Below are positions 8,626-23,536 of a stretch of 64,000 bases of DNA, in pieces. Each line of letters starts with the position of its first letter. Within the stretch, counting starts at the first letter, position 1. The notes beneath the pieces were generated by a model, which saw only the letters and a list, made by a program, of their open reading frames with translations, was not told the origin of the DNA and searched no databases. The DNA is from Spizellomyces punctatus DAOM BR117 (taxonomy: Eukaryota). The stretch is from NCBI GenBank assembly GCA_000182565.2, contig KQ257451.1. The stretch is one strand, 5' to 3'. The translations under genes were made by a program, and so were the position numbers.

Positions 8626-11600
8626 CTATTTTCTCTTTCTCGCACCCTCTTCGGTAAACATCCCACCGCTTTCAACGAACTTTTTAATCTCGGGAATACT
8701 TTGCACAACAGGTTCGGGAATAGCAAATAGAAGCGTGACTGTTGATTCCATTTCCTGAAGTCGGGCTTGCGCCGTTGCACGCATACTCGCGAGGTAAACC
8801 AGCAGCGTACTGGCTACCGATATAGCAAAAAGGACAATAATAGCTGTTTTTGCAACGCTATTGCTGTGGCGGGAAACGGATCGTACATATTAGCTTTCGG
8901 TAGCTGCACATGGAATCCAAATCCCCACCCACCCGCTAATGATAATGTTTTGAAAAATAGTGTCGACTTTGTTCAGGTTTGTATTAAGGCTTGCCGATAG
9001 TGTAGAAATAAAGTTGAAAGCGGAATCGCTCGTGGTGACATTGCTAACTTTGACTCTGTTAAGAAAATCCGTCGCTTCATTAATGAACCATTCAATCTGC
9101 GCGTCGAGTCCAATAGTCAGATTTCCGCATGCAGGTTGGCAGGGGGCAGAGGTAAGGGTAAAGGTCTGTAGATCCGGGATTGTCGTCGTCGCAATGCAGT
9201 TCACGCCTGTTACAGAGTCGTGATGAAGGTTGATCAACTTGGTCAGACGATCGTCTAGCCACATGATTGGAGCGTTTGGCAACCAAGTAGTAGGGTCGAA
9301 GTAGATACACTGAAGAATTTTAAGGTTGGAATGATCTTCATTTTCCTCATTATCGAGCACGGTAACATACCTCTGCTGCAAGCATGACAACCGCTTGCAT
9401 TAAGTATCTTCTGCTGTTTGTGTAATTCATTGTCGCTGCATACGAAATAGACATCATCGCTCGATACTGTGGGGAAAAATCAGTTCCCATAGTAGGAGGA
9501 ACAAACTTGATAATACTCACGATTGGAACGATCAACAACGCAGTCGCTGGCAAGCCTAATAGAATTAAGCCCGCTAAATACCGAATGAAATGCTTCTTGA
9601 TTGGACTCTTATTCACCACGTCTTCATCAACAGTCATGTTCATCAATTGCCTAGCGGCGAAGTTGCCGTTATTGCCCTGTTGCTCATCGTTATTCTTTCC
9701 ATCTTCTTTATTGCCTGCAGTTGTTGTCATTTCGTCGGCAATGCTCTCAATCTGAAATGAAAAATTAGAAACAACAGTATCGTGAATGGCCGATAATCGC
9801 TAATTACCTGCTCTTCAACATCTGTCAGCATATGCATGAGGGGTTTTTTGGGCAGCAGAGCGAACATTTTCAGAGTTCGGATTTGCTCGTCACTTGTCTG
9901 ATTCATCATCGGAAGTAAAACGACATAGGCCCACCCCAACATTGTCACAACCAGCAGACCGCACAAACTGTAGAGCACATACTAGAGTAATATTTTGGGG
10001 TGAATATTACAGCTCTATTTTGAGACTTTGAATTCAAGGTACATACCACACTCTGCATGGTTCCATTTATCCACTTTTGCTGGCCCCCGCTACTCGCACT
10101 CTCAAAGGCAGGACCGACAACGATAGCATTATCAAGAAAGAATCGAACACGATTGTCCTCCAGCTGACTCGTATTGTAAAAATTCCAGCCTTGTGGATGC
10201 CATCTTGGTTGGTCAATGTGCAGAGCGAAAGCACGAACATCCATACGTACTCTGTTGACCCAGTTCCACGCCGTATTGGTATACAAGTTTCACAAGTTGG
10301 TAGGCATTCATATACTGAATCTTTTTAATCGAAATAGGTAGCTGCGACATCTAGAGCCACAAGATGTCAATCACTGTTTCATCCTCCCTCTATTCGCTTG
10401 TCTTACCGTCACCGCAATCGTTGCCGGGTCGTTATAGAATCCTGCAAGATAGGAAACGTAATACGTTGTGAAGTTTCTCATTAACGACGCGATAGAAGTC
10501 TGTGCGTCAGCAAAACGAGTACGCAGTTGCGGTACACCTTCAGGCGCAACAAAGGCTGGCTGTACGAAGGTGCGAACATTTTGCACAGCCAATGTTGCAG
10601 CACGGGAGAGCCGAGTGACGCGAGCGAAACCGGAGATGTTGTCTTCAGCAGATTGAAAGGACCAGATTCCGACGGCAATTGTGGTAATCACGATGAAGAG
10701 GTAGATTGCTAGGCCTAATTTCTGTCGGCGATCCAGGATGTAGACTGGCGCTTTGAGCCGGGATTGGAGCTGGGCTCTGTGGTAGGCCTGAGCGGATATC
10801 ACAAAAATGTGAGCACCTGCTGCCACAAGAAGAACTTCAAACCTCGGTTCTAGCCCTCTCACCTTTTTTCTCTCCTCTCTTTCTGACGACTGATAAAGTA
10901 GAAAACACGCAGAAGTGTTAACACTTATGGAATTCTGCAACTCACCAAAGAAGAATATTTACCCTTGTGCTGGGAACTGATTCACTGGGAGCCGGCATTT
11001 TATCGGCCCTTGCAGCGGCTTCAGCTATCTCATCTTCTTCTTTGAACGTTCCGTGAAATCCAACCCCTTTGGTGACTTCCTCGTCGTCATCATCGTCGTC
11101 ATCAACCTGAGTCTTGTCAACGTTCGAGTATCGACGCCGTAGATACGTCTCGGGTTCGATGTTTTCAATTTCAGGGAAGACAATCTCCCTAACAATAGGT
11201 TCATCCATATTGGATTCGTCTTGTATTGGCGCATCCGTGGGTTCACTGCCATCCATCATCTTGCTCATGGTTTCCTCCATGACGACGCTGATGTTTGGAT
11301 CCATCGCCAACGGTCGGGTCCTGTCTCGAAGGCTTGCCTTACGACTAACAGTAGTTTGAGAATTGTATACGGTGTTGGCGCTGCGATGCTGCAAAGAGCT
11401 GCGACGAAGGGAGCCAGCCATGGATCCTCGACGAGACTCATTCCGATAGCTGGTGGTAGCCATGCGTGTCTCGAGCTCTTCGATCTCTTCGGCAGCATTT
11501 GTGAATTTCGCTGCACCTTCTTTGTCGTTCTTCAGGACCAAAATCAAAAGGCGCGACAATTAGGTAACAGTGTTTTCTGCTCAGAGGATTGACGAGGACA

Positions 11601-13867
11601 AGTGAAACGAAAGCTTACCTTAATTTGCATCAAAAAGGCGGCATACATCCTCAAAAGCACCTTACTCTTGGGCCATCTCGAAATCAACTTTTTGTAATAG
11701 TCAGTAGCCTTCTGTTCCGCTTCACTGATACGCTGGAGGAAGATGGGATACGTCTTCGGGTCCCTTCCGCGTTGGTGCGTGCGAACGTGCGTTAAGAATG
11801 CACGTATTTCCAGAAGGGTTGCAAGGTGATTCCGTCTTGCACCATTTTGCATCGTCTGAAACTCGACGTAAGAGGAACTTTTTGACGTAGTTGAATAAGG
11901 GTAAGGGTTGCTCATGCAAGGCCTGGACCTGAGGTACACAGTACTTACATGTTCAATGTCGAGGAGTTGAGACCTTCGGTTCGCTTGGACTGCTCAATGA
12001 TATGATCCTAACAAGATTCCAGTTATTGTTGTGCTTCATCTATCACCTCAGATCGAAATTTCCAAACCTGCATAAAAATAAAGAAGCGAGCATCAAAAGC
12101 TGGTTTCAAAGTTTTCGCCTTCTGGATAAAATAGGCGGGCTCTTCATTTCCTGGCGGAGTGTAGTTCTCAAGATACTCGGCGTATCTGGATTCAACACCG
12201 GATAGATTAGCGAACGACTGATTTTCGAGGAGGAAACCCATCGAACATACACAAGATTTAACATTGCATCCTTTGGGTACTGACGAAACCCCTCTGCGAA
12301 AATCTCATCCATGATAAACAAAGCCTCGTCTGATCGGTTGTTATGGACGAAACGACACGCGATTTCCACTTCAGGTACATTGTTAAATACGCGAATGTCC
12401 TATTTACATGTCATGAATCAGCAGAAGATCCTGAACAGTCCGTCAAGTAGTTGAACAATCACCTTTGGCCGAGTCCGTAGTGTAGTAATCGTTTGCAGAT
12501 TTTCCAACCAATCGCTCTGGCTGTTCTCGGAATCTCCAATAGCCGCCGTTTTGATAATCCGCACCCCACCTTCTTCAGCAAGCTTGCCCATTTGGGGAAG
12601 CATTTTCTGCTTCAGTTGCAGCTTTCTATACACTCTGCTGGTAATGCTTTTGAAGGCACTACGACAGGCCAAAACTCCAACGACGAACCCAATAGGCACG
12701 GTAATGACCGCGACTATGGGAAGGGCGATGGAGTCTGATCCGATGGCATATGAGATGGCGGCGATAATCCCACTCAAAAAAGCGGCGGAGAAGATTCCGG
12801 CCCGCAGTTGGTTGACGGCAGACTTGTAAAAAGGTTGGTAGGCTATCATGAGATACGAAAGAATGGCCGTAATGGGTATCAGCACAGCAAGGCTGAAGCG
12901 TGGATCACGCGCGAGTGTGAAAACAGAGGTTAGGATAATACGAAGTACGACATCTGCGACGGTAATAAAGATCAGATATGTTGTAACAGATACAGAACTC
13001 TACATGAACTTACATATCGTATCCACCCTAAGAAGAAGAGACCATCATTAGACCGTGGACCAGACTAGTACATGAGCTTAACATGCGACCCACCTTCCGA
13101 TCGGGACTCGTGCCATGGCCGATTTTCGATTGGGGGTGGTTTCCAGATAAATTGACGACATAACAATGTTGTACGGTACAAAAATGATCATCAGAAGGAT
13201 AGCAATGACAGTTTCAGCTGTGTATGCTCCCGAAAAGCATTGAACGCTCGGATATTCTATCAACGAGTTATCTGGCCCAAAGCACGTCACTGCAACGAGA
13301 AGGACCTCCAGAAACGGCATGAACAAAACGGTGCCGAGGAGTTTGGTGACGAGACGGAGGGTTTTGAGTGCCAGCAATGAAATACCCGCAAACTGCTTGA
13401 ATAGTTACCAACTGCCACATCAAAAACGGCTTCAAGCTCATCTCGTTGGGCATCTTACCTTGCCACTTTCGAAAGAAACAGCAACCTGTGCGGCGGCTGC
13501 AATCGCCACGACAACAAATCCGACCACAATTCCTAACAAGATCAGGTATTGTCCATACTCATGCGGTCGATACGAAAGCGGATTGGTCACATATTGCGCC
13601 CATGTTGGCATTCGGCCATAAAACGATGGGTTGTGCGCAAAGGCAATGAGCTACAATGATGATGTTGGTGAGTTGTTGGAACTTGACCTTGAACTCTAGC
13701 AGAGATAGTTTTTGTTGCATCTTTGATTTTACCTGGATATCTTCCGTGAACATGATGATGTATGACAACAAATTGTTCACATCGTTGTCTTTCACCATGC
13801 TGTACAGCACGGAAAACATGACCTTCTCCATGGCATTCTGGGGTGATGAAGAGCGATTTTCGTCCAT
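8626..13867 (-). CDS. TmcB/TmcC (tiny macrocysts)-like polytopic membrane protein, many exons
   Basis: N-terminus MEKVMFSVLYSM...FTEDIQ, then a multi-TM block with LFMPFLEVL, GRVDTIY and YQPFY...NQLRAG. A TPR-like region follows (YKKLISRWPKSKVLLRMYAAFL...NDKEGA), then a disordered linker and two TM-loop-TM modules ending in FALLPKK and LLFAIPEPVVQSIPEIKKFVESGG. Last exon stops at 8626-8628. Confidence 0.8.
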
Positions 13868-14902
13868 TAGCAATATTTCAAATGATGGTTGAGGAGATAG
13901 CCTCCAGCTTTCGCTTGTGCCGTGGCAAACAAGTTTCGGTAACTTAACAAATCCCTACATACCCCCAAATACATTCGGCCATCTTTCTCAGCCAGCCCAG
14001 AATCGCTCATTGTATTGACTCGGTCGTAGGAAACAATAACCGAAACAAAAATGTCACTTTATCCGACCGTAGCTAAGATAGCATAAGGAAGAAATAATCC
14101 TTTAGTGTGGTAACAGGATAGCCAACTCTGTTGAAATAAGTACCGGTCCATCCGAAAAGAACAATGCGACATTTGAGGCGGGACACATATCTCGTAATCC
14201 GTCCCATGTCGTATGGGACCCTTCGATTGTGCAGTTGCCACTACAAGGATGGGCACATGCACGTTGACCTGGGTATCAGTTTCCTGAATGCTGAGAAACG
14301 ATGTCGAACAATAGGAAGGCAGCATTTTCAGATGAGACACTGATGTATGGGGCTCGTCTTTTGTGGCCTCTCGGCTTATCGAACTCGATTGGGGGACATT
14401 AAGGTAATGATCTAATTTCTCGGTATTGTTTGGGGCTTCGTAAGTGTCGGTCATTAATCACGGCAAAACGATGGAGGTTATGACAATACATGCCAGAAGA
14501 AAGGAACCCTTGGGGTAGACAAGACACGATTAGCTAATCGAACAAGCCACGTACCTGGTAAGTTTGCTTACGTACAGCTCAGCTGTTAGATTGGAAGTAA
14601 GCAACATTCAACATGATAATCAATATGAATGTAGGACGCACAGCTGAAAGCGCAAAACCAGGTCTAAAAAGTTATTGGTAAAACAAGAAATCAAGATGTT
14701 AGAAGCTACTTTCCAAGCCCATATCGGCTCGGCCCTTAACACGCGAAAGCGCCCCCATGCTCAAGGCCCTGCACTGCCGCTTGTTCAAAGGGTTGGCGAG
14801 CTTGAGTCCAAATGACACCATGTTATATCAGCCTCAGACGCCAAAAATAAAAAGACCTGGTGAGACTTAAATTGCTTCACTTCACTTGCCGTAGTAGCAA
14901 CA

Positions 14903-17900
14903 ATGATGCATACAACTGCCCGCCTTGTCGTAATCACATTGCTCCTACCATGGACTCTTGTCTTTGCCCAAGTTAATGGCCAACAGAAGCCCACAGGCAT
15001 CGGTGTAGAAGGCCAACCCCAATTTTCCTCGCAAACACTGCCGGATCCGAGCACTTACCAGCATTCAGTCTCTCTGGCGAATGTCGGGAGTGGAAACTAT
15101 TCTATGGCTTTTGCATTGGAAAATGGGGCGAAGAGCGTGAGGTTTTTGATGATGTTGAGCGGAGTACAATTGAATCGGGTTCGTTTGACATGCATGCCTT
15201 GTCATCACCTTTATTAGCGTACCTGACTACTAGTTTGAAACATGGCGATAACACAGGCATGGATGGGCATTGGGTTTGGTTCCTCCATGCTCTCCTCGGG
15301 ATTCATTATTACACATCTACTCGCAAATGGAAGCGTTGAAATGCACGAGCACACTCATAGAAATCAATATGCTCCGCCAACCAGCCACGAGGATCCTAAG
15401 AACTGGGTAATGGAACCGCTGAACGGGGGATACGTCAATGGCATAATGTTCAGTGAATTTCGTCGACCAGTCGATCCGCCGCCGCCGGTCGAATACCCGC
15501 ACGTCACTTTGTCCTTCATGAGTCCTCAGCATATGATTTGGGCGTATAATCCAGCTTCGAAAATAAACACATTAGGGCATTATTTTACATATCACATGCC
15601 CAATGATGGTAAGTATTGCATTCATGGCAATTGTCGTTTTCGGCAGTAAAGATGATTTGGAACCCGCTCAGATAACGGAAATGGCTTGCCCCACCTTCCT
15701 AACCAAACCCACGGCGCCCTCCTGGTAGACTACACCCGGGCGACCGTCGAACCCATCCCTCTTAATCCGTACCCTCCCAAAGTGGCTCACGGGTCACTCA
15801 TGTTCATTGCATGGCTCGTCATACTGCCAATGGGTGCCTTCATCTCCCGATATCTCCGCTTCATTCCGAATTGGATCTATTTCCACCTCACCGCTCAGCT
15901 TCTCGGGGTCCTGATCATCATAACATCGTTCGTGGTCATCCTGGCAACCTACATTAATTACAATTATCCCCATGCAATTCTGGGGACGACCATGATTGGG
16001 TTGCTGTGCTTACAGCTGTTACTGGGATTAGGGAACCGGAAAATGTTGCGAAGTGTCTTACCGTACTCCCCTCGTCGCCAGTTTATACGCATATTCCATC
16101 GAACGTTGGGGTACACTCTACTTCTCGCCGCGATCGCACAAGTAGCTCTTGGATTGCGCATCCTCTTTCCCTTCGAAGAGCGGCGTGGGCTTGCATTCTG
16201 GATCGTGTACATTATCGTCGCAGGATTGTGGATCCTTTTGTTTCTTGGGACCGAATTGTACCGCCGACTCTTTTTATCCGTTAAGGATAAGACTGTTCCA
16301 GCTCCGGAGGTGGAACAAGGGAACAAGTTCCTTGAAGCAGGAAAGCCCGTTCCGAAAGGGATGACAGAATTGGCAAAGGTGCAGGATGAAAAAGTCTACC
16401 CTGATTTACTTTCGTATGATTGGAGATCTCTGGATAAGGCCGTGTCGGATGGGTGCGTTCGAGGTCTTTTCCTTTTGAGTTTGCTAGCGCATTGTTGTGA
16501 CTTGCTTTCAATGACGAGCAGGGCGATCCTTGTAGTAGCGAACGGACGCTACGTCTACGACGCTTCCCAGTGGCTCCGGTAAGGTCATGCTGTTGTATCG
16601 TCCTCTGTATGATCTGGTCTCAAGCAAGCATGATTTTCATCTATTCAATGCAGCTCTCATCCAGGTGGTCAGGTAAAAAGTCCCACAGTTCCACAGCATT
16701 ATTGGTTCGTCGAGCAATAGCAGTGATATTTTCCATTCTAGATCATCCTCTTGGCAGTCGCGGGAACCGATATATCCAGTGATTATTTTCATGAAGGTTC
16801 GTACCTAATCACATTTGGGAGTCCCATTAAGAACGAAAGCAAGTAACAGTCATCAATTTTCAAATATAAAGCCGGATACGATGCAGCGGAATTTACCCCA
16901 CCTCGTCGCATACCATTACAAAGGGCAGAACGACAAGATGTGACGACTCTGCACGAAAGTATCCCGTCCACCACGCCTTCCAATCTCGCTCCTGATAGTT
17001 TGACGTCAATGAGCGGTACAACAGAGTTCATGGAGACATCACACTACTTGACTGAGGAGGACTGGTCCAAAATCGTACGAGCACGTCGAACGCATGTGCA
17101 TACAAAAGTCGCTATCATGCGCTTGTCGAATTTGCTAGTGGGGGAGTTACATCCTTCTCATAAACGGTGGCAGAAGGCGTTGAACCAGGGGAGCGAGCCT
17201 ACCCTTGTAAATCAAGATGTTGGGGATGGCAATGACGATGCACAAAACAGATTATTCGATCCAGAGGAGTATCGTCGGTATGCTTTAACATCAAAGACAC
17301 TCGTCAACCCCAACACTCCTGGCCACCCAATCTTCCGCCTGAGATTCTGTCTTTTGTATCCTTACGAGCGCAGACAAGGCGAGCCAGAAATTATCTATCC
17401 TGGGCAAGCAATGGAGATTCAGATTCGCCCACATGCCGATCGAATCCCTTTATCGAGGTACTATTCGCCTGTTCATGGAAATATGATGGCTCTTGAAGTC
17501 TTGGTAAAAATGTACCCTGGGGACGGAGTATCCGGATATTTGGGAAAACAGCGACTTGGGGAAAGACAGTTCAAGATTCGCGGCCCGCTTGGGGATCCAT
17601 TGGTTGGGCCGGAACGCCCGCTGGGGTTTGGCGGGACTGGGGCGGATTGGGTGCCGGAAGATATGCTATTCGTGTGTAAGTATAGAGAGACAACTCTACG
17701 GCTAGTAGGCTGGTAGTTGTCAGGAATATCTGTTTGCGAGAGCTCTTGCTAATCCATCTTAAACAGCGGCGGGAACAGGTATAACCCCGTTCCTTCAACT
17801 TCTTCAATATCTCTTCCTACCCACATCCGTTCCCCTCCTTGTAAGCCTTCATTTACAAATCCCAGCGTCCGTCCCCAAGGATCTAACTCGCAACTTTTAT

Positions 17901-18602
17901 ATCGCAGGCAAATGGTGACTACACCCCCGCAATGTCCGATGAAATTGCTCTTCACGAGGGGGACACTATCGTAGTGCAACATCATTATCTGGACGGATGG
18001 GCTCTAGGACGGAACATAACCACGGGTACGGAACTGCATCGACCATCAGTGATAATCAGTATAGAGCTCATTTCCCAATCCCAATGATAAATAGGCGAAG
18101 AAGGAGCATTTCCTCTCCCAAAAACGCATCCCCGCACCTCAACGAAATTAACGTTACTCAACGCTGTGCATGCCCCACAAGACATTATTGGAACAGACCT
18201 CATCGATGCGGTTCTTCTATCTTACCCTCGGCACCTTCAAGTTCACCACGTTATATCATTGCGCGAGGGTAGTGTGGAGAATGTCAGCGGATTCGTATAC
18301 AGGGGGCATGTATGTGAGGCTGTCTTGGCACAGGCTGTTTCGAATGAAAGCATGGGGGATGAGGAAAATGAGAGAAGGTCTGGGAGGCATGCAGTCGTGT
18401 GTGGACCGCCGCAATTTAACTCGGCGATGGTGGATCAGGTGGGTTCAGGAAATTATTTGGGACAATCTGTTTGTTTATACTGATGCCTTGCTCTCGGAAT
18501 ATGCAGCTCATTTACAAGTTTGGATACCAAAGCACCGATGTCACCATGCTGACCAGCGATTCGCCGTATTGGTATCATCATCTTGAAACTTGTAATGGGT
18601 GA
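14903..18602 (+). CDS. Signal peptide-DOMON-cytochrome b561-cytochrome b5-FAD/NAD(P)H reductase fusion with an internal SH3 domain (about 991 aa, 11 exons)
   Basis: Exons 14903-15178, 15257-15608, 15672-16452, 16522-16578, 16654-16672, 16742-16796, 16872-17675, 17767-17840, 17908-18025, 18095-18438 and 18507-18602 are all GT-AG bounded and sum to 2976 nt in one open frame. Motifs: DOMON WMGIGFGSSM...IWAY...YH; b561 AHG, FH, PH, FHR; b5 VYDASQWLRSHPGG; FAD RYYSP, GVSGYL, RGPLG; NAD(P) AGTGITP, CGPPQF; SH3 DY..DEIAL..GD...GW..G..G.FP. Confidence 0.9.
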
Positions 18603-18923
18603 GCACTGTCCTTGGAACTGTCGATGTTGGCATCTCTTTTGCGATCTTGGTGACGCGGGCTTGGGACATTCTCAGCACCCCTATGTATATTTTTGCTTTT
18701 GTCTACGCCTCATGTACATACTGTAAACAGGTTCTGACCATGTTGGTAAATTGCAATTAGGAGATTTACTGGCAGCTTTCTCTATGCATATTCATATGTG
18801 CAGACCCAGGTATATTCGGTATATTTATTATGCAACTCAGTCTTGGATTACCGAGTGGTCTCAGAAAAAAAAAGAGGTTCCTGCCCTCTCAACAGCCAGT
18901 ATATAAACTTCGCTCAGAAACCC

Positions 18924-21244
18924 TCACACCTCTTCGGCAATCTTAGAGCTTAATATCCCTCTACAATATTCCCCAAAACAATCCACAACACTTGGTTTTG
19001 ACATCGAGTTTCCTGTTCGCAGTTTATCAAGTTCATCAAAGAACATTGCGTGAATGCTTGAGAGGGCAGCCTGGACGGGTTGGAAGGAAACGTCCCAGAT
19101 GTTGTATGCTGAGTGTGCTTTTGGACGTATTTCCTGTGATTGAGTTAGACCAATGTGCCTCTGTGACTCAAATATGAACGAATGACCTACAATTAGGTGG
19201 CTGTGCTGATCCTTTCGCCATGACATGCGACTGTCGTCCACAATAAGCGGCTCCAATCCGAATCCATAACCATATCCTTCTCCCTCCTCCTTCGGTAGCG
19301 CACCCTTTTGTTCCTCCTCCCACAAGTGCCAAAATCCATACAGACTAGCCAAATCTTTTGGAGGTGGGAGAGCGCCCTTGTCTCGTGACGATGGTTCCGC
19401 AGATTTCCTGCCCTGCATTTGTTTCAAATGCTCATATTCGCTTCGTGCAGAGTATGCCGTTCCAGTAATACGCAGTGCAGAACCGGCTGGTACGTCGTTC
19501 AGAATCTCACAGACTTGTTGGACGTACTCTTGGTCTCCTATTGAACAAAGGCTGATTTCAAATCTTTCCTTGGCCCAATCAAGGAAAGCAATGACGGACG
19601 AAGAGAGTACGACTTGCATTCCGCGACGCAAGGTTACCACACGGGATTCCGGAACTGTTTGAATGAGATATTAACTTGTGATCATCAAAAAATGTATCTT
19701 GCTAATGCGTACTTAATGGTACTTGTTCTCGTGGTAAAGCTTTTGGCTCAGGGCCCACAGCCCGGAGAATAGTATCGTCAATGTCAAGGACGAGGGGGAG
19801 CTTGCGATCGAACAGCATTTTATCAACCTGCTGCCGTAGCGCCTTGCGAATGGCACCGGCCGGTATAAAGTAAGCAAAGATCCTAGGTGACGGAAGGAAA
19901 TAGCATAAGTTTCTAACGGCTTAGTAAAGTCACAATCCAGCCGATCAGACTTACTTTCTATTCAACTTGTCTCGTGAAGGCTTCAGGTGCATCTCCCATT
20001 CCCTGTCAGTTCCCTTCTCCTTGATATTTACATGAACAGTCTTTCTCAATCCGGCCAAATCCTTCCAAAAGTCACTATCTGGTTCCGGCCACTTGAAGAC
20101 AAGCCGATGCTGGCTACCGTAATGACCAAGTTGACCAAAGCTGCTGAAAAACGAACGCGGGAGGGGTTTTTGAACTTGGAATGTAGAAGCTAGCAGAAAT
20201 GTTTCGTTGAATGATATCGTGCTGACTTCGTGCAAGGTTAATGTACATGGTGTGTTATATGGTGCGGGTAATATGAGAGTTGGTGAATAGGGCGGAAGTC
20301 GGGATTGAGAGGAAAACTCGATATACGTGGGAACAGGAGTTGGAACCACCGGTTGCTCATCAACGGCTGGAAGATGCCAATGAGGTTAATGCAAACAAGA
20401 TTAAGGGACCCAGCGGAACTCTGAAGGATTGGTGTACCTGGTGTAAGAGTAGACTGGGTTATCGGTGCCATAAGGCCATCCAACCCTCCTGGAACTTGGT
20501 GATTCTGTATCGTGGCATTTATAGCTTGTTGTGGTTGCATGTATGTTTGCAAACATGATACCAGGCTACACACATACTGTTGAAAAATGGAGAATAAACT
20601 GGTAAGGCAATGAAGACACTGATGGGACTGATGTCTTGCATGCACATGGCTATGACTGGAGATGGACGATCATGTCCATCTTTCGACAGTACACTGCCAA
20701 GATATGTCGACGTAGGGAGTGGATACGACTCCCAATGTTTGGGTATGTAAAGTCAATCCAGCGCGTTTTCTCCCCAAGTATTGGATATGCTGCTCCAATC
20801 CAATTGCAATGGCAAGGCTCCTTCATTTTGTGCATCAAGATATGTAAAGCGCAAACTCACCTCCAGTTGACGTTGTGCGTCGTCGGGCGACACAACTGGG
20901 GACAAAAGAGGCAAGTTGGTCGTCGGCGACATGGCTTGACCTTTCTCTGCCGTACCATCTATATTCAGCGGAGTGCCAATTTTTCCCGAAGCTGCATGAC
21001 GGACAGTTGGAACATGCGGGTAATGTTCATGGCGTGGTGAAATCGCTCTGTATGGTTTGAAATGCTTTTTGCGTGATGACCCAGTAGTGGCTTGTTGCGC
21101 TTGAGCATGCGTGCGAGCGGCGAGCTGCCGTCGATCTGAAGGTGGTCGTTGGTGTAGGTGAACGGTGCCGTTGGGAAGAGCTCCCCGATGCGACCGTGGT
21201 TGGTGACCGACGGGTCCCGCAGCCCAACCGCGTCGATGATCCAT
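18924..21244 (-). CDS. Fcp1/CPL-like HAD-family CTD phosphatase; 5' exon structure uncertain
   Basis: An exon near 19720-19880 (not in the ORF track) reads KMLFDRKLPLVLDIDDTILRA, with the DxDxT motif at 19771-19785. Downstream: VTLRRG, FEISLCSIGDQEYVQQVCEIL, LIVDD and ALSSIHAMFFDELD, which are FCPH-domain hallmarks. The start at 21244 (MDHRRG...QLE|GTGAGT) is tentative. Confidence 0.75.
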
Positions 21245-22225
21245 GGCGTGTAAAATGGGTAAAGGGCCAAAAGGACGGGGCCAAGACGAAAGAAACAAAG
21301 AGTGCAGGGAAAGACGCCTCAGCACCGACCTCGCTCGGCGAAGCAGACCAAATATGCCTTTTGTAGTGTTCACCGCTGTTTGGGCTGCCGAAAAGTTTGC
21401 GGCTCCAAAGGAATACGGCACAGGTGGGGCTCGTATCAAAAAATGCCAAGAGGGGATGTAGAGTGCCTTACACTCAAAGGCAGCAACAACAGGCTGCGCG
21501 CAGTCAATGAGAAGCTACTGCAGCGCCTACTTGACAGCTTACTGAACGCCCACAAGTTCTCTCAACAGAGACCTCGAATATCAAATCTGCTGTCAAGCAA
21601 ATATACGCCAGAAAGCTTTTTGTAGAGTCCCGGATTGCACACGCAGAGAGTCCAACCCTCCTTTTTCACCTTTTTGCTTAAAAAACAAACACGGTAATTT
21701 GGGATGCTCTTGCTCCCCCTAGTCTTTTTACTTTTGAGCACTTGTATATTCCTTTTGGGACCACAGCAAACCGTTGGGTCAGAAAGGAGAGAAAGGCCGA
21801 AACCCAAAAGACTTTATAAATGCTCAGTTTACACACGTGATAAACCAATGGATGCATCAAATGCATTCCAATGCTTTGAACACTTATGTCATCCGTTGGC
21901 ACACCTTTTTTTACTTTTTGTTCTTCAATAATGGCCTATTCAACTACTAGCCATGTGGAAACAATAAAATAAAAGGCAGGTTGAAGCAAACGACCATAAA
22001 AAGAACAAGTCAAACAAAAAAAGGCCTAAAAGAAATCTTTTTGTTTTTCACGGCTTTCTTCAGCCCCCAATTGCCCCAACATCCACAAAAGCTCTTCACG
22101 CAAAATAACAGAGTCAAAAGCTGTGAAAACGGCCCCTAGGGGTTTAAACTAAACTGCATAGGAAAACCACTTGTCTAGCTGTTTCTTTTGTTAGCCGAGG
22201 GGTGGCTTGCCGGGGAAGGGGGTGA

Positions 22226-23536
22226 ATGGACTCATCGATGGGCATCCCCAACGAAAAGCATGAATTTGTCTTTCGTGGCAAAATGGCATCCACGAACACA
22301 CCAACGCGAAATAGGTGTAAACATGGGGAGAGCGAAAAAACGCTTTCTGAACGTGGCTGCCGACGGGGGTTCCCCAGCCCAAGAATCATCGCCGATCCTC
22401 CGTCCAGCAAAGAAGCTCTTTGCCGAGAACATATGTCATCCCTCCCGCCCGCCGAGACCACTATTTTCCACCTTCCCGCCTCCCATCCCTTTGATTCTTC
22501 ACATACACAATACATGCTCCTAAAATCTATAAAAAAGTTTTGTAAAAAGCTTCGTAAGAACGGGAAAGCACCTGTTACTGCTGGCAGTGTTCGTCCAGAC
22601 AGCGTTGTCATTCACGAAGATGCAGCCACTGCGTCGTATCGTCCGTCGTTTCTTTGGGAGTCCGATGACGATGTGCGCCACTCGATACAGGACAAGACGA
22701 AAGCAATACCAGGACAGGGCACTTCCAGACAAGAACCCAGAGGGAGCAACCGGACCAGTGACATGTTGAAATCCTCCTCTCAGACTGGCCGTTCGCATGA
22801 CTCTGTCAGACCCTCGTATTATGCGACACGCCCATCCATCGACTCTACCCGGTCAGCCACAGGACCTGGATTTTCGTTTTCAACGTTTACCCCAACTCCT
22901 ATTGACGCCCGTTGGACACGACGTTCCGCCGATATGCCGCGCGAGGTCCACCATCCCTTCCCTCCCCTGCCCCCATCAAAGCTGTCACCGCGACCCTCCT
23001 CCGTTACCTCCTCCACACACTCTTCATCCGTTTCCGCCCACCTTGACGCACAGATGCAAGCACTCAATGGCGTCTTTTCACGCATACGAGCCGCACAGGA
23101 TCTCAAAAAGGAGAACCTACAACGACGAGAACGCTCATCCTTTGATTTTCCCCGGCCCGGTGCCCTCACAGCATCGGTCCATGGAGCAGGCCGTGGATCA
23201 CAGGACACGTATGGATCCCTCAAAACGCAGACGGGGAGAATCTCCCAGGACACTCTATCAGCAACCCCATCGCGGTACGATGCCCCAAAAAGGTCCTTTG
23301 ATCAACCAAGACTGCAAGCACCGTACCTTCCTCCACCGACTCCCAAGAGTAGACCCATCATTGTCATTACACCAACACCGCCAGATCATGACGCTCGATC
23401 GACCGTGTCGCATTGTACGCATAAATCCAATCGGACAGATTCAGGCTTCCATCGAAGCGAATTGGAGTCTTTATACATAGATTTGAAGGATTTATCCTTG
23501 GATCAGTTGGTAGAAAAGTATGCGACCGTAACCTGA
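22226..23536 (+). CDS. Hypothetical Ser/Pro/Arg-rich disordered protein, single exon; the true start may be a downstream ATG (about 22430 or 22514)
   Basis: 436-codon ORF rich in RxS motifs (RRSAD, RSSFD, RPSID, KRSFD) with an ordered-looking C-terminus (IDLKDLSLDQLVEKY). Confidence 0.7.
   Translation: MDSSMGIPNEKHEFVFRGKMASTNTPTRNRCKHGESEKTLSERGCRRGFPSPRIIADPPSSKEALCREHMSSLPPAETTIFHLPASHPFDSSHTQYMLLKSIKKFCKKLRKNGKAPVTAGSVRPDSVVIHEDAATASYRPSFLWESDDDVRHSIQDKTKAIPGQGTSRQEPRGSNRTSDMLKSSSQTGRSHDSVRPSYYATRPSIDSTRSATGPGFSFSTFTPTPIDARWTRRSADMPREVHHPFPPLPPSKLSPRPSSVTSSTHSSSVSAHLDAQMQALNGVFSRIRAAQDLKKENLQRRERSSFDFPRPGALTASVHGAGRGSQDTYGSLKTQTGRISQDTLSATPSRYDAPKRSFDQPRLQAPYLPPPTPKSRPIIVITPTPPDHDARSTVSHCTHKSNRTDSGFHRSELESLYIDLKDLSLDQLVEKYATVT

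What the first reader, a model, noticed from the sequence alone, without database searches (positions are those of the whole stretch)
14903..18602. One-polypeptide trans-membrane electron wire: DOMON-b561-b5-flavoreductase
Seen in sequence: an 11-exon frame orders signal peptide, DOMON (candidate Met/His heme ligands SSM and YH), cytochrome b561 with all four His, an extra TM, cytochrome b5 (HPGG) and a complete FNR-type FAD/NAD(P)H module. Established: DOMON-b561 proteins (CYBDOM, FRRS1/SDR2) move electrons across membranes from a separate cytosolic donor, usually ascorbate, while b5/b5-reductase fusions are cytosolic. Inference: this protein carries its own donor (NAD(P)H to FAD to b5 heme to two b561 hemes to external DOMON heme). 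That would make it a functional analogue of NOX/FRE built from a different membrane module, for extracellular iron or copper reduction, ROS production, or feeding secreted redox enzymes. I know of no characterised protein with this architecture but could not run a search.
Basis: partly seen in the sequence, partly recalled or inferred. Interest (0 to 1): 0.88.

Follow-up and report, generated by a model that had tools for sequence, protein, structure and literature searches.

The report
Chytrid self-powered transmembrane haem wire
This chytrid-fungus gene encodes one membrane protein that appears to carry electrons from NAD(P)H inside the cell through four haems to the outside. It belongs to a conserved but unstudied family that would be a second way, besides NADPH oxidases, to build such a machine.

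Summary
Window 14903-18602 (+) holds an 11-exon, 991-aa gene whose product is letter-for-letter the annotated but uncharacterised SPPG_00880 of Spizellomyces punctatus.

- signal peptide
- DOMON (Met103/His205)
- five-helix cytochrome b561 (His249/281/310/352)
- cytochrome b5
- cytochrome-b5-reductase-type FAD/NAD module

Two features were missed:
- An SH3 domain is inserted in the NAD subdomain.
- The b5 fold is split by a 55-85-aa insert, so the second haem ligand is probably invariant His590, not His512.

The full layout is conserved in dozens of relatives. All 49 named ones are zoosporic fungi and none has a functional name. S. punctatus has at least four paralogues. In 8 of 16 long relatives, one of them from S. 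punctatus, an animal-type haem peroxidase precedes the DOMON, a DUOX-like layout.

Topology puts DOMON outside and b5 and reductase inside. The best reading is a self-sufficient NAD(P)H-to-outside electron wire: a CYBDOM with a built-in donor that works like NOX/FRE but is not one. The acceptor is unknown and no biochemistry exists. Ten literature searches found no description.

The parts
14903..18602 (+). Whole coding region, 11 exons, 991 aa (SPPG_00880). Exons: 14903-15178, 15257-15608, 15672-16452, 16522-16578, 16654-16672, 16742-16796, 16872-17675, 17767-17840, 17908-18025, 18095-18438, 18507-18602.
   Evidence: splice model, all introns GT..AG, 63-91 nt. (identical to P0001).
14903..14968 (+). 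Signal peptide, aa 1-22. The cleavage site after VFA is an inference.
   Evidence: Hydrophobic segment 4-27. Helix 2-21 in the model.
15035..15757 (+). DOMON beta-sandwich, aa about 45-238 (spans introns 1 and 2). Candidate haem ligands Met103 (15287-15289) and His205 (15593-15595).
   Evidence: Pfam DOMON E 4.8e-6, 27.2 bits, below the cut-off of 32.7. 25 of 40 relatives hit DOMON at E<=1e-3. All-strand region in the model. In the Atlas structure search all 10 rows are DOMON-containing clusters, TM by query 0.61-0.68. M103 39/40, H205 40/40.
15773..16276 (+). Cytochrome b561 core, five TM helices (aa 244-270, 277-302, 309-336, 343-374, 383-411). His249 (15788-15790) and His310 (15971-15973) would hold the outer haem. 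His281 (15884-15886) and His352 (16097-16099) would hold the inner haem.
   Evidence: Pfam b561 23.5 bits. Dcytb 5zlg_A Z 15.0 and Arabidopsis b561 4o6y_A Z 14.9. His conservation. The pairing rule H1/H3 outside, H2/H4 inside comes from passages of PMC10691727 and PMC10784544.
16406..16882 (+). Cytochrome b5, N-terminal half, aa 455-517 (spans introns 3-6). HPGG at 491-494, first axial His491 (16658-16660).
   Evidence: Pfam Cyt-b5 33.7 bits, profile positions 3-50 of 74 only. H491 40/40. The most conserved part of the protein, 0.63 mean identity.
16883..17050 (+). Low-confidence insert inside the b5 fold, aa 518-573.
   Evidence: pLDDT below 50 over 514-525 and 539-570. An insert of 55-85 aa is present in 40 of 40 relatives. 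PxxP lies in its first 25 residues in 21 of 40, but not in this protein.
17051..17185 (+). Cytochrome b5, C-terminal half, aa 574-618. Conserved motif RARRTHVHT..A...LS.LLVGEL. Proposed second axial ligand His590 (17099-17101).
   Evidence: H590 40/40, H588 37/40, against H512 22/40. A model of relative P0146 superposes on whole bovine b5 across the insert: 1f03_A, 80 of 82 residues, rmsd 2.4 A, Z 7.6. Foldseek TM by target is 0.71-0.74 when the alignment spans the insert and 0.55-0.60 when it does not.
17252..17641 (+). FAD-binding beta-barrel of b5-reductase type, aa 641-770. R709-Y-Y-S712 at 17456-17467.
   Evidence: Pfam FAD_binding_6 20.5 bits, cut-off 21.1; 34 of 40 relatives hit. Profile against PDB: Physarum b5R 2eix E 3.4e-14. 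Cbr1 Z 20.8. R709 37/40.
17642..17828 (+). NAD(P)H-binding subdomain, first part, aa 771-802 (spans intron 7). G784-T-G-I-T-P789 at 17772-17789.
   Evidence: G784 39/40, G786 37/40.
17829..18132 (+). SH3 domain inserted in the NAD-binding subdomain, aa 803-858 (spans introns 8 and 9).
   Evidence: Pfam SH3_1 34.3 bits. Profile against PDB: vinexin SH3 E 1.8e-11. D817, D835, G836, W837, G849 and P852 are invariant in 40 sequences. 34 of 40 relatives hit SH3_1.
18133..18599 (+). NAD(P)H-binding subdomain, second part, aa 859-991 (spans intron 10). C948-G-P-P951 at 18400-18411.
   Evidence: Pfam NAD_binding_1 32.4 bits, 860-956. Alignment to b5R and Cbr1.
18603..18756 (+). 3' UTR up to the poly(A) site.
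   Evidence: RNA run X7: depth 67.6 in bin 18536-18672, and a poly(A) loose end at 18756 in 10 reads.

Best explanation
SPPG_00880 is a self-sufficient trans-membrane oxidoreductase: a CYBDOM-type haem conduit whose usual soluble donor, ascorbate, has been replaced by a covalently attached cytochrome b5 and NADH-cytochrome-b5-reductase module.

Proposed path:
1. NAD(P)H, more likely NADH because the module is b5R-like, reduces FAD in the C-terminal reductase.
2. FAD reduces the b5 haem (His491/His590).
3. The b5 haem reduces the inner b561 haem (His281/His352).
4. That haem reduces the outer b561 haem (His249/His310).
5. That haem reduces the solvent-exposed DOMON haem (Met103/His205) on the non-cytoplasmic face.
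6. The DOMON haem reduces an external one-electron acceptor.

Shown here: the gene model, the domain order, the folds, conservation of the ligands and nucleotide/flavin motifs, an odd number (5) of TM helices, and the charge pattern that puts DOMON out and b5/reductase in.

Inferred: cofactor loading, direction and continuity of electron flow, the donor, and the acceptor. My preferred acceptor class is ferric or cupric chelates, or a secreted or wall-bound redox protein. The second option is suggested by paralogues that carry a haem peroxidase fused to the DOMON.

The SH3 domain inserted in the NAD subdomain is most simply a docking or regulatory handle for a proline-rich partner. That partner is unknown.
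For: Gene model and family:
- The gene model equals the annotated protein.
- The full architecture is conserved: 171 representatives at E<=1e-30, many aligning over about 90-980.
- 49 of the 55 relatives I looked up carry an organism name, and all 49 are Chytridiomycota or Blastocladiomycota. I checked three lineages.
- On 40 full-length members Pfam finds Cyt-b5 in 40, FAD_binding_6 in 34, SH3_1 in 34, b561 in 31 and DOMON in 25.

Ligands and motifs:
- M103 39/40, H205 40/40, H249 40/40, H281 34/40, H310 40/40, H352 39/40, H491 40/40, H590 40/40, R709 37/40, G784 39/40.

Folds:
- Yeast Cbr1 Z 20.8 (rmsd 2.5, 237 aligned), human CYB5R3 Z 20.7, Dcytb Z 15.0.
- Whole bovine b5 aligns at 80 of 82 residues across the insert. 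TM by target is 0.71-0.74 when the alignment spans the insert.
- In the DOMON structure search all 10 rows are DOMON-containing clusters.

Topology:
- Five helices, hydrophobic in 37-40 of 40 members.
- Only 2 of 40 members have a further TM-like segment after TM5.
- K+R counts are 2, 7 and 4 in the predicted cytosolic loops, against 0 and 3 (the latter with 2 acidic residues) in the outer loops.

Context:
- CYBDOM HYP1 conducts electrons from cytosolic ascorbate over three haems to ferric and cupric acceptors. The same passages call ascorbate the specific donor of the b561 proteins characterised to date (PMC10784544, passages).
- 8 of 16 long relatives carry An_peroxidase (E 1e-87 to 1e-118) directly before the DOMON. 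One is S. punctatus SPPG_06812 and two are Blastocladiomycota. On a tree built without the peroxidase columns these eight form one split with support 100.
- The gene is transcribed on the + strand, polyadenylated at 18756, and intron 10 is removed.
Against: - There is no biochemical or genetic evidence of any kind.
- The whole-protein model has pTM 0.54, and I have no coordinates or PAE. Haem-to-haem and FAD-to-haem distances, and the docking of b5 on b561, are therefore untested.
- For this protein itself, DOMON (27.2 against 32.7 bits) and FAD_binding_6 (20.5 against 21.1) fall below Pfam's curated cut-offs.
- The inner-haem ligand His281 is Lys in 5 of 40 relatives.
- The assignment of His590 rests on conservation and on a model of a relative (P0146), not on this protein's own structure. 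In this protein's model residues 589-591 have pLDDT below 50.
- RNA reads are 3'-biased. Only the last junction is seen, depth over the upstream exons is 0.72 or less per bin, and no read joins the DOMON-b561 half to the b5-reductase half.
- The acceptor is a guess.
- The membrane could be internal rather than the plasma membrane.
- NADH versus NADPH was not tested.
Confidence: 0.6

Rival explanations
1. It is an oxidase: a NOX/DUOX analogue that reduces O2 at the outer face to superoxide or H2O2. The peroxidase-fused paralogues would use that H2O2, as DUOX does. The wire would be the same but the acceptor would be oxygen.
For: - 8 of 16 long relatives have a DUOX-like order: haem peroxidase outside, TM haem module, NAD(P)H flavoprotein inside.
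- The peroxidase domain of SPPG_06812 matches the DUOX1 peroxidase-homology domain at E 1.1e-40, although lactoperoxidase-like 8s6c (6.9e-62) and Dictyostelium peroxinectin A (2e-54) match better.
- A built-in SH3 recalls the SH3-bearing phox regulators. p47phox SH3 matches the family profile at E 6.3e-6, well behind vinexin at 1.8e-11.
Against: - Chytrids already have classical NOXA, NOXB and a further unclassified NOX (PMC9421330, passages).
- From my own knowledge, not tested here: b561 and Met/His DOMON haems are high-potential and b5 sits near 0 mV. NOX haems lie below -200 mV, which is what allows O2 reduction. A DOMON haem should therefore be a poor O2 reductant.
- The flavin module is closer to b5 reductases (Z 20.7-20.8) than to NOX dehydrogenase domains (SpNOX DH 17.3, NOX5 DH 15.7, NOX2 14.4).
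Confidence: 0.2
2. The mechanism is the same, but the protein sits in an internal membrane (secretory vesicle, vacuole, ER/Golgi). There it would feed electrons into the lumen for a lumenal enzyme, as chromaffin-granule b561 does for copper monooxygenases. It would not act at the cell surface.
For: - A signal peptide plus TM helices fix only the topology (DOMON on the non-cytoplasmic side), not the compartment.
- DOMON domains accompany lumenal copper monooxygenases. Four of the 10 Atlas structure rows (rows 2, 3, 5 and 8) are DBH/MOXD1-like clusters.
Against: - Characterised CYBDOMs in the passages read act at the plasma membrane (HYP1; PMC10784544).
- No sorting signal was tested.
- The peroxidase-fused paralogues begin with hydrophobic N-termini, like secreted ectodomains. 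That is equally compatible with either location.
Confidence: 0.12
3. The fusion is an annotation artefact, or two independent activities share one chain. A DOMON-b561 ascorbate-dependent reductase and a separate b5/b5-reductase would merely be read as one gene, with no electron transfer between the halves.
For: - RNA reads do not bridge the b561/b5 boundary.
- The 412-454 linker is unconserved (0.11 identity) and low-confidence.
- The docking job for b561 with b5 gave no verdict and counts neither way.
Against: - The boundary lies inside one exon. Exon 3, 15672-16452, encodes TM1-TM5, the linker and the start of b5 in a single open frame of 308 codons.
- The same collinear order is predicted independently in dozens of genomes from more than 20 genera.
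- Five TM helices put the C-terminus in the cytosol. Animal CYBDOMs are described as having an even number of helices (PMC10691727, passages).
- The b5 halves are among the most conserved parts of the protein: N-half 0.63 (the highest of all regions) and C-half 0.47.
Confidence: 0.03

Closest known systems
CYBDOM proteins (cytochrome b561 + DOMON): Arabidopsis HYP1 and CRR, human FRRS1/SDR2, Drosophila CG8399
   Same: - Signal peptide, then an extracellular DOMON with a conserved Met/His pair, then a b561 core with four His on four consecutive helices.
- The 'redox bridge' idea: three haems carrying electrons outward to ferric or cupric acceptors (PMC10784544 and PMC10691727, passages).
   Different: - Known CYBDOMs end after the membrane domain and take electrons from free cytosolic ascorbate. 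This protein continues for about 580 residues with b5, an FAD/NAD reductase and an SH3 domain.
- It has five helices, so the C-terminus is inside. Animal CYBDOMs are described as having an even number.
NADH-cytochrome b5 reductase and its natural b5 fusions: Cbr1/CYB5R3, Ncb5or (CYB5R4), and the b5-b5R module of nitrate reductase
   Same: - Best fold and sequence matches of residues 641-991: Cbr1 Z 20.8, CYB5R3 Z 20.7, Physarum b5R E 3.4e-14, nitrate-reductase b5R domain, Ncb5or CS-b5R.
- The order b5 then reductase is the same as in Ncb5or.
   Different: - Those proteins are soluble or tail-anchored and reduce cytosolic or ER partners. Here the module is tethered to a b561 conduit.
- The b5 fold carries a 55-85-aa insert before the second His.
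- The NAD subdomain carries an SH3 insert.
- No CS domain was detected between b5 and the reductase.
NOX / FRE / DUOX (ferric-reductase-domain superfamily)
   Same: - The overall logic is the same: an NAD(P)H flavoprotein inside and bis-His haems stacked across the membrane, reducing an acceptor outside.
- Paralogues with an N-terminal animal haem peroxidase copy the DUOX order.
   Different: - The membrane module has a different fold. It is b561 with one His on each of four helices, not the FRD with two His on each of two helices (the FRD rule is recalled). There is no Pfam Ferric_reduct, FAD_binding_8 or NAD_binding_6 hit.
- There are two extra haem stations, b5 and DOMON.
- The flavin module is nearer to b5R than to NOX DH domains.
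Cellobiose dehydrogenase (flavin domain plus a DOMON-like cytochrome domain that reduces LPMOs)
   Same: - A Met/His b-haem in a DOMON-like beta-sandwich serves as the mobile, solvent-exposed exit station of a flavin-fed chain.
- CDH-cyt Pfam hits occur in 3 of 40 members and in two peroxidase-fused relatives.
   Different: CDH is secreted and fed by sugar oxidation outside the cell. Here the reducing power would come from cytosolic NAD(P)H across a membrane.

Membership tests
CYBDOM (DOMON + cytochrome b561) | N-terminal secreted DOMON domain | tested here: met
   Pfam DOMON E 4.8e-6. The score of 27.2 bits is below the cut-off of 32.7 in this protein. 25 of 40 relatives hit at E<=1e-3, and some long relatives score above the cut-off. 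In the Atlas structure search all 10 rows are DOMON-containing clusters, TM by query 0.61-0.68.
CYBDOM (DOMON + cytochrome b561) | Conserved Met/His pair for the DOMON b-haem | tested here: met
   M103 39/40 and H205 40/40. The ligand rule comes from passages of PMC10784544 (M90/H174 in HYP1) and PMC10691727. Haem binding itself was not tested.
CYBDOM (DOMON + cytochrome b561) | b561 core with four His on four consecutive TM helices | tested here: met
   Pfam b561 23.5 bits, cut-off 23. Dcytb Z 15.0 and Arabidopsis b561 Z 14.9. H249 40/40, H281 34/40, H310 40/40, H352 39/40.
CYBDOM (DOMON + cytochrome b561) | Cytosolic ascorbate as electron donor | not testable with these tools
   The rule is from PMC10784544 passages. 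The fused b5/reductase suggests another donor, but ascorbate use is not excluded.
Cytochrome b5 | Complete b5 fold with HPGG and two axial His | tested here: met
   Pfam covers only profile positions 3-50 of 74. In a model of relative P0146, 80 of 82 residues of bovine b5 superpose across the insert (rmsd 2.4 A, Z 7.6), and all 12 hits with Z>=5 are b5 domains. H491 and H590 are 40/40; H512 is 22/40. The exact second ligand is an inference.
NADH-cytochrome b5 reductase / FNR-type flavoprotein | FAD barrel with RxY(S/T), and NAD(P)H subdomain with GxGxxP and CGPP | tested here: met
   RYYS 709-712, GTGITP 784-789 and CGPP 948-951 (the motif definitions are recalled). Cbr1 Z 20.8 and CYB5R3 Z 20.7. 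b5R 2eix E 3.4e-14. FAD_binding_6 scores 20.5 bits in this protein, just below the cut-off of 21.1.
NADH-cytochrome b5 reductase / FNR-type flavoprotein | NADH rather than NADPH specificity | not tested
   The only hint is the closer likeness to b5 reductases than to NADPH enzymes.
NOX / FRE / DUOX (ferric reductase domain superfamily) | Six-helix ferric-reductase TM domain with two His pairs on two helices, plus FAD_binding_8 and NAD_binding_6 | tested here: not met
   No Pfam Ferric_reduct, FAD_binding_8 or NAD_binding_6 hit in this protein or in the family tally. The TM domain is a b561 fold. NOX DH domains match, but less well than b5R (Z 14.4-17.3 against 20.8). It is therefore not a member, although it may work like one.
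SH3 domain | SH3 fold and signature residues | tested here: met
   SH3_1 34.3 bits, cut-off 22.9. Vinexin SH3 E 1.8e-11 with the family profile. D817, D835, G836, W837, G849 and P852 are invariant. The ligand is unknown.

The most novel reading that the evidence does not exclude
Zoosporic fungi own a second, independently assembled NOX/DUOX-type system built on cytochrome b561 rather than on the ferric-reductase domain. It would be a four-haem, one-flavin, NADH-driven wire gated through a built-in SH3 domain. Its plain forms (this gene) would reduce metals or wall proteins. Its peroxidase-fused forms (SPPG_06812 and relatives) would be true functional counterparts of dual oxidases. They would either make the H2O2 that their own peroxidase uses, or drive an extracellular peroxidase directly with cytosolic NADH. 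The second case would be a trans-membrane 'NADH peroxidase', for which no precedent is known to me.
Probability: 0.25. Interest if true: 0.9.

Novelty: new variant of a known kind. Interest (0 to 1): 0.75.

Why it matters
In the passages I read, the cytochrome b561 proteins characterised so far depend on free cytosolic ascorbate. The only well-known enzymes that push NAD(P)H electrons across a membrane to the outside are the NOX/FRE/DUOX family.

A natural b561 conduit hard-wired to NADH through b5 and b5-reductase would be a second, convergent solution to the same problem. It has four haem stations in a row, which makes it a compact model for long-range biological electron transfer.

It also raises the question of what early-diverging fungi do with it. 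That group includes the amphibian pathogens Batrachochytrium, which have orthologues. Candidate uses are iron or copper uptake, wall cross-linking, feeding secreted redox enzymes, and peroxide handling.

The peroxidase-fused paralogues suggest that a DUOX-like layout arose independently of the metazoan one. The SH3 insert offers a built-in regulatory handle to test.

S. punctatus is transformable (PMC7213984, search listing and abstract only), so the questions are experimentally reachable.

Tried and rejected
- First homologue search with exon 3, 'longer': it found only the protein itself because candidates were crowded out. The exhaustive search replaced it.
- No whole genome is held for this window. 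NOX/FRE content and paralogues could not be searched in the genome itself. The paralogues come from protein databases instead.
- The look-up of sequencing runs: no listed holder of the stretch is on record as RNA. X1-X3 proved to be DNA contigs collinear with the introns. Only X7, raw RNA reads of 60 nt and 3'-biased, was informative. No 'joints' rows were returned.
- A 46-residue stretch around His590 searched alone against PDB sequences gave no hit at E<=10.
- The 'shorter' homologue search, meant to fetch canonical b5 proteins for a profile test of the split b5, returned only fragments of this same family. I used a fold test on fragment P0146 instead.
- A recalled distal-His motif of animal peroxidases (GQ.xxHD) matched none of the eight fused relatives. 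The alignment shows that the canonical His position is T/M/Q/L/G in 9 of 10 sequences (His only in P0070), while a Ser/Thr/Ala-His pair follows four residues later in 9 of 10. REHN and the proximal His are kept in 10 of 10. Whether these peroxidase domains are active is left open.
- Intramolecular SH3 ligand: PxxP lies in the first 25 residues of the b5 insert in only 21 of 40 members and not in this protein. The idea was dropped.
- A profile of DOMON-b561 fragments (A3) against PDB sequences listed only b5 and FNR-type chains among the 60 rows shown of 130 hits. It gives no sequence-level test of DOMON or b561 against solved structures.
- Complex prediction with b561 (238-414), three haems and b5 (452-612): no verdict, score 0.00 in both runs, alignment not used, controls not run. 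It is not evidence either way.
- Neighbouring ORFs gave no Pfam hit, except a weak NIF-phosphatase-like match downstream. There are no tRNA genes in the window. In a eukaryote the neighbours were not pursued further.
- Supplements of the papers were not opened. The reference lists and supplements of the CYBDOM and NOX evolution papers might list fungal architectures that I did not see.

Full report
THE OBSERVATION

I read window 14500-19000 and listed its open frames. A script then joined the frames through canonical splice sites. The result is 11 exons between 14903 and 18602 on the + strand. The ten introns are 63-91 nt and all are GT..AG. The CDS is 2976 nt and encodes 991 residues.

A database search with exon 3 returned one protein of 991 residues at 100% identity, NCBI 'uncharacterized protein SPPG_00880 [Spizellomyces punctatus DAOM BR117]'. 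It is letter-for-letter my spliced translation. The organism is a chytrid fungus.

DOMAINS

Pfam on the whole protein gives:
- DOMON, residues 81-166, 27.2 bits (cut-off 32.7).
- Cytochrom_B561, 249-371, 23.5 bits (cut-off 23).
- Cyt-b5, 461-509, 33.7 bits.
- FAD_binding_6, 689-754, 20.5 bits (cut-off 21.1).
- NAD_binding_1, 860-956, 32.4 bits.
- SH3_1, 810-852, 34.3 bits.

The SH3 lies between the GTGITP helix (784-797) and the next strand of the NAD subdomain. A family profile aligned to Physarum b5 reductase and yeast Cbr1 shows the reductase sequence resuming after the SH3.

An AlphaFold2 model built on 40 family members has mean pLDDT 79.9 and pTM 0.54. The domains are confident but their mutual arrangement is not.
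- Residues 643-975 match yeast Cbr1 (Z 20.8, rmsd 2.5 A, 237 residues) and human CYB5R3 (Z 20.7) best. Matches to NOX dehydrogenase domains are lower, at Z 14.4-17.3. Foldseek agrees on the b5-reductase type.
- Residues 241-407 match human Dcytb (Z 15.0, rmsd 2.9 A, 162 residues, chain 42-224) and Arabidopsis b561 (Z 14.9).
- For residues about 40-240, all ten rows of the Atlas structure search are DOMON-containing clusters, with TM by query 0.61-0.68.

THE SPLIT CYTOCHROME b5

Pfam covers only the first two thirds of the b5 profile. About 70 residues downstream lies a strongly conserved block, RARRTHVHT..A...LS.LLVGEL. In it His590 is invariant (40/40) and His588 nearly so (37/40). From memory, this block resembles the ..GHS..A..L....IGEL end of canonical b5.

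I tested the idea by fold. Fragment P0146, a relative that has Met at the His512 position, was modelled with a 52-row alignment.
- All 12 solved chains with Z>=5 are b5 domains.
- Bovine b5 1f03_A superposes with 80 of its 82 residues (rmsd 2.4 A, Z 7.6) over model residues 54-208, that is across the insert.
- Foldseek alignments that span the insert reach TM by target 0.71-0.74. Those that stop before it reach 0.55-0.60.

The insert is present in 40 of 40 members, at 55-85 residues. In the model of this protein it is low-confidence. I conclude that the b5 fold is complete and that His491 and His590 are the likely axial ligands. The ligand assignment remains an inference.

CONSERVATION AND SPREAD

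An exhaustive HMMER search of 1.84 billion representatives found 1514 hits at E<=1e-3 and 171 at E<=1e-30. Dozens of 850-1100-residue proteins align over about 90-980 at 33-50% identity.

I looked up 55 relatives for names.
- 49 carry an organism name and 6 are metagenomic.
- All 49 are zoosporic fungi. Most are Chytridiomycota from more than 20 genera, including Batrachochytrium dendrobatidis and B. salamandrivorans.
- Three are Blastocladiomycota: Sorochytrium and Blastocladiella (lineages checked) and Catenaria (phylum recalled). The Catenaria hit aligned only over the reductase part, residues 640-956.
- For the other genera I rely on recall of their classification.

Most of the 49 are named only 'hypothetical' or 'uncharacterized'. 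Two carry an unrelated enzyme name, S-methyl-5-thioribose-1-phosphate isomerase. A few peroxidase-fused relatives are called 'heme peroxidase' or 'DOMON domain-containing protein frrs1L'. None has a name that describes the whole protein's function.

S. punctatus has at least four paralogues: SPPG_00880, SPPG_02277, SPPG_04966 and SPPG_06812.

On 40 full-length members Pfam finds Cyt-b5 in 40, FAD_binding_6 in 34, SH3_1 in 34, b561 in 31, DOMON in 25 and NAD_binding_1 in 10.

Candidate cofactor residues are conserved: M103 39/40, H205 40/40, H249 40/40, H281 34/40 (Lys in 5), H310 40/40, H352 39/40, H491 40/40, R709 37/40, G784 39/40, G786 37/40.

The b5 N-half is the most conserved region (0.63 mean identity to this protein). 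The linkers are the least conserved (0.04-0.18).

TOPOLOGY

- The five helices are hydrophobic in 37-40 of 40 members.
- Only 2 of 40 members have another TM-like stretch after TM5.
- Loops predicted cytosolic hold 2, 7 and 4 Lys+Arg. The two outer loops hold 0 and 3, the latter balanced by 2 acidic residues.

With a signal peptide, DOMON is therefore on the non-cytoplasmic side and b5, the reductase and the SH3 are cytosolic. This is the orientation the wire needs.

By the rule quoted in the CYBDOM papers, the first and third His hold the outer haem and the second and fourth hold the inner one (PMC10691727 and PMC10784544, passages only). That gives His249/His310 outside and His281/His352 inside.

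PEROXIDASE-FUSED RELATIVES

Of 16 relatives longer than 1300 residues, 8 carry an animal-type haem peroxidase domain (E 1e-87 to 1e-118) directly before the DOMON. They come from Spizellomyces (SPPG_06812), Geranomyces, Borealophlyctis, Quaeritorhiza, Nowakowskiella, Cladochytrium, and the Blastocladiomycota Sorochytrium and Blastocladiella.

On a FastTree of 42 rows, built on 929 shared columns with the peroxidase columns dropped, they form one split with support 100. SPPG_00880 sits in a Spizellomycetales clade of six rows, also with support 100. I left fragments and the other long relatives out of that tree.

The peroxidase domain of SPPG_06812 matches a lactoperoxidase-like chain (6.9e-62), Dictyostelium peroxinectin A (2e-54) and the DUOX1 peroxidase-homology domain (1.1e-40). 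Its canonical distal-His position is not His in 9 of 10 sequences, while the proximal His and REHN are kept. I leave its activity open.

The Atlas lists a 179-member cluster with An_peroxidase, Cyt-b5 and DOMON. It also lists a Mucoromycota cluster of An_peroxidase with DOMON. The pairing of a peroxidase with a DOMON haem is therefore recurrent in fungi.

EXPRESSION

Six runs that hold the stretch were listed, and the three laid (X1-X3) turned out to be DNA contigs. One RNA run of the same species label (X7, 60-nt reads, about 6% read) laid 371 reads, 364 of them first mates. Depth lies almost wholly on the + strand (table 2).
- Depth is 67.6 in bin 18536-18672.
- Ten reads have a poly(A) loose end at 18756.
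- Five reads break at 18438 and continue with the first 15 letters of exon 11. Eleven reads break at 18504 from the other side.
- Depth is 0.72 or less over exons 1, 2, 7, 9 and 10.

The gene is thus transcribed and polyadenylated, and intron 10 is removed. The other junctions rest on the frame, the splice signals and homology. The b561/b5 boundary lies within a single exon (exon 3), which argues against two genes.

HOW IT MOST LIKELY WORKS

NAD(P)H would reduce FAD. FAD would reduce the b5 haem. The b5 haem, on a 22-133-residue tether, would reduce the inner b561 haem. Electrons would then pass to the outer b561 haem and to the DOMON haem, which would reduce an external acceptor.

The architecture and topology are shown. 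Electron flow is inferred from what each module does elsewhere.

In the passages read, HYP1 carries current from cytosolic ascorbate to ferricyanide, ferric and cupric acceptors over three haems, and ascorbate is called the specific donor of the b561 proteins characterised to date. Here a b5-reductase/b5 pair takes that place.

From my own knowledge of typical midpoint potentials (FAD in b5R well below b5 near 0 mV, b561 and Met/His DOMON haems positive), the chain would run downhill to a fairly high-potential exit. That favours metal chelates or protein partners such as a peroxidase or a copper enzyme over O2. Chytrids also already have NOXA, NOXB and an unclassified NOX (PMC9421330, passages). 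I therefore rank 'reductase' above 'oxidase', but the DUOX-like paralogues keep the oxidase reading alive.

The SH3 partner is unknown. A self-ligand in the b5 insert is not supported.

COMPARISON AND NOVELTY

The protein meets the tested features of CYBDOM, b5, b5-reductase and SH3. It does not meet those of NOX/FRE, having neither the ferric-reductase TM domain nor FAD_binding_8/NAD_binding_6. It is a CYBDOM variant that works like a NOX/FRE.

Ten full-text searches found no paper on this architecture, on the locus tags, or linking DOMON with chytrids. Hits for 'cytochrome b5' include 'b561' by word-start matching. Subscription journals and supplements were not seen. The sequences are in public databases under automatic names, so the family is unstudied rather than undiscovered.

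A docking job for b561 with b5 gave no verdict. It is listed only among the things tried.

VERDICT

This is a real, conserved and uncharacterised family. Biochemistry is needed for donor, acceptor and direction.

Noticed in passing
window 17829-18132 (aa 803-858): An SH3 domain is inserted in the NAD-binding subdomain of a b5-reductase-type flavoprotein. Six of its residues are invariant in 40 relatives.
   Followed up: partly
relatives P0050 (SPPG_06812, same species), P0043, P0066, P0067, P0068, P0070, P0077, P0093: These paralogues and relatives have an animal-type haem peroxidase fused in front of DOMON-b561-b5-reductase, a DUOX-like order. They occur in Chytridiomycota and Blastocladiomycota. 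The canonical distal-His position is not His in 9 of 10 sequences.
   Followed up: partly
window 18400: RNA run X7 reads G instead of T in 3 of 9 reads. None of the DNA contigs X1-X3 shows it. The base is the first of the Cys948 codon in the CGPP motif. It could be a strain difference, an error or editing. The evidence is too thin to say.
   Followed up: no
ESM Atlas cluster of P0001: The protein's own 54-member cluster is labelled 'commonest Ciliophora' (phylum known for 28 members), yet every named relative I looked up is a zoosporic fungus. Either the metagenome labels are wrong or the family extends beyond fungi.
   Followed up: no
relatives P0154 (Geranomyces michiganensis) and P0009 (Borealophlyctis nickersoniae): Two full-length family members carry the NCBI name 'S-methyl-5-thioribose-1-phosphate isomerase', which fits none of their Pfam domains. 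This looks like an annotation error.
   Followed up: no
Atlas structure row 1: A 75-member cluster, commonest in Mucoromycota, combines An_peroxidase (100% of members) with DOMON (69%) in proteins of about 750 aa. This looks like a peroxidase-DOMON pair without the membrane wire.
   Followed up: no
window 18924-19670 (- strand): The downstream convergent ORF of 248 codons has a weak match to NLI-interacting-factor-like phosphatase (E 9.3e-4, below the cut-off). Other large ORFs nearby (10374-12999 on the - strand, 20756-21514 on the - strand, 22226-23536 on the + strand) had no Pfam hit.
   Followed up: no
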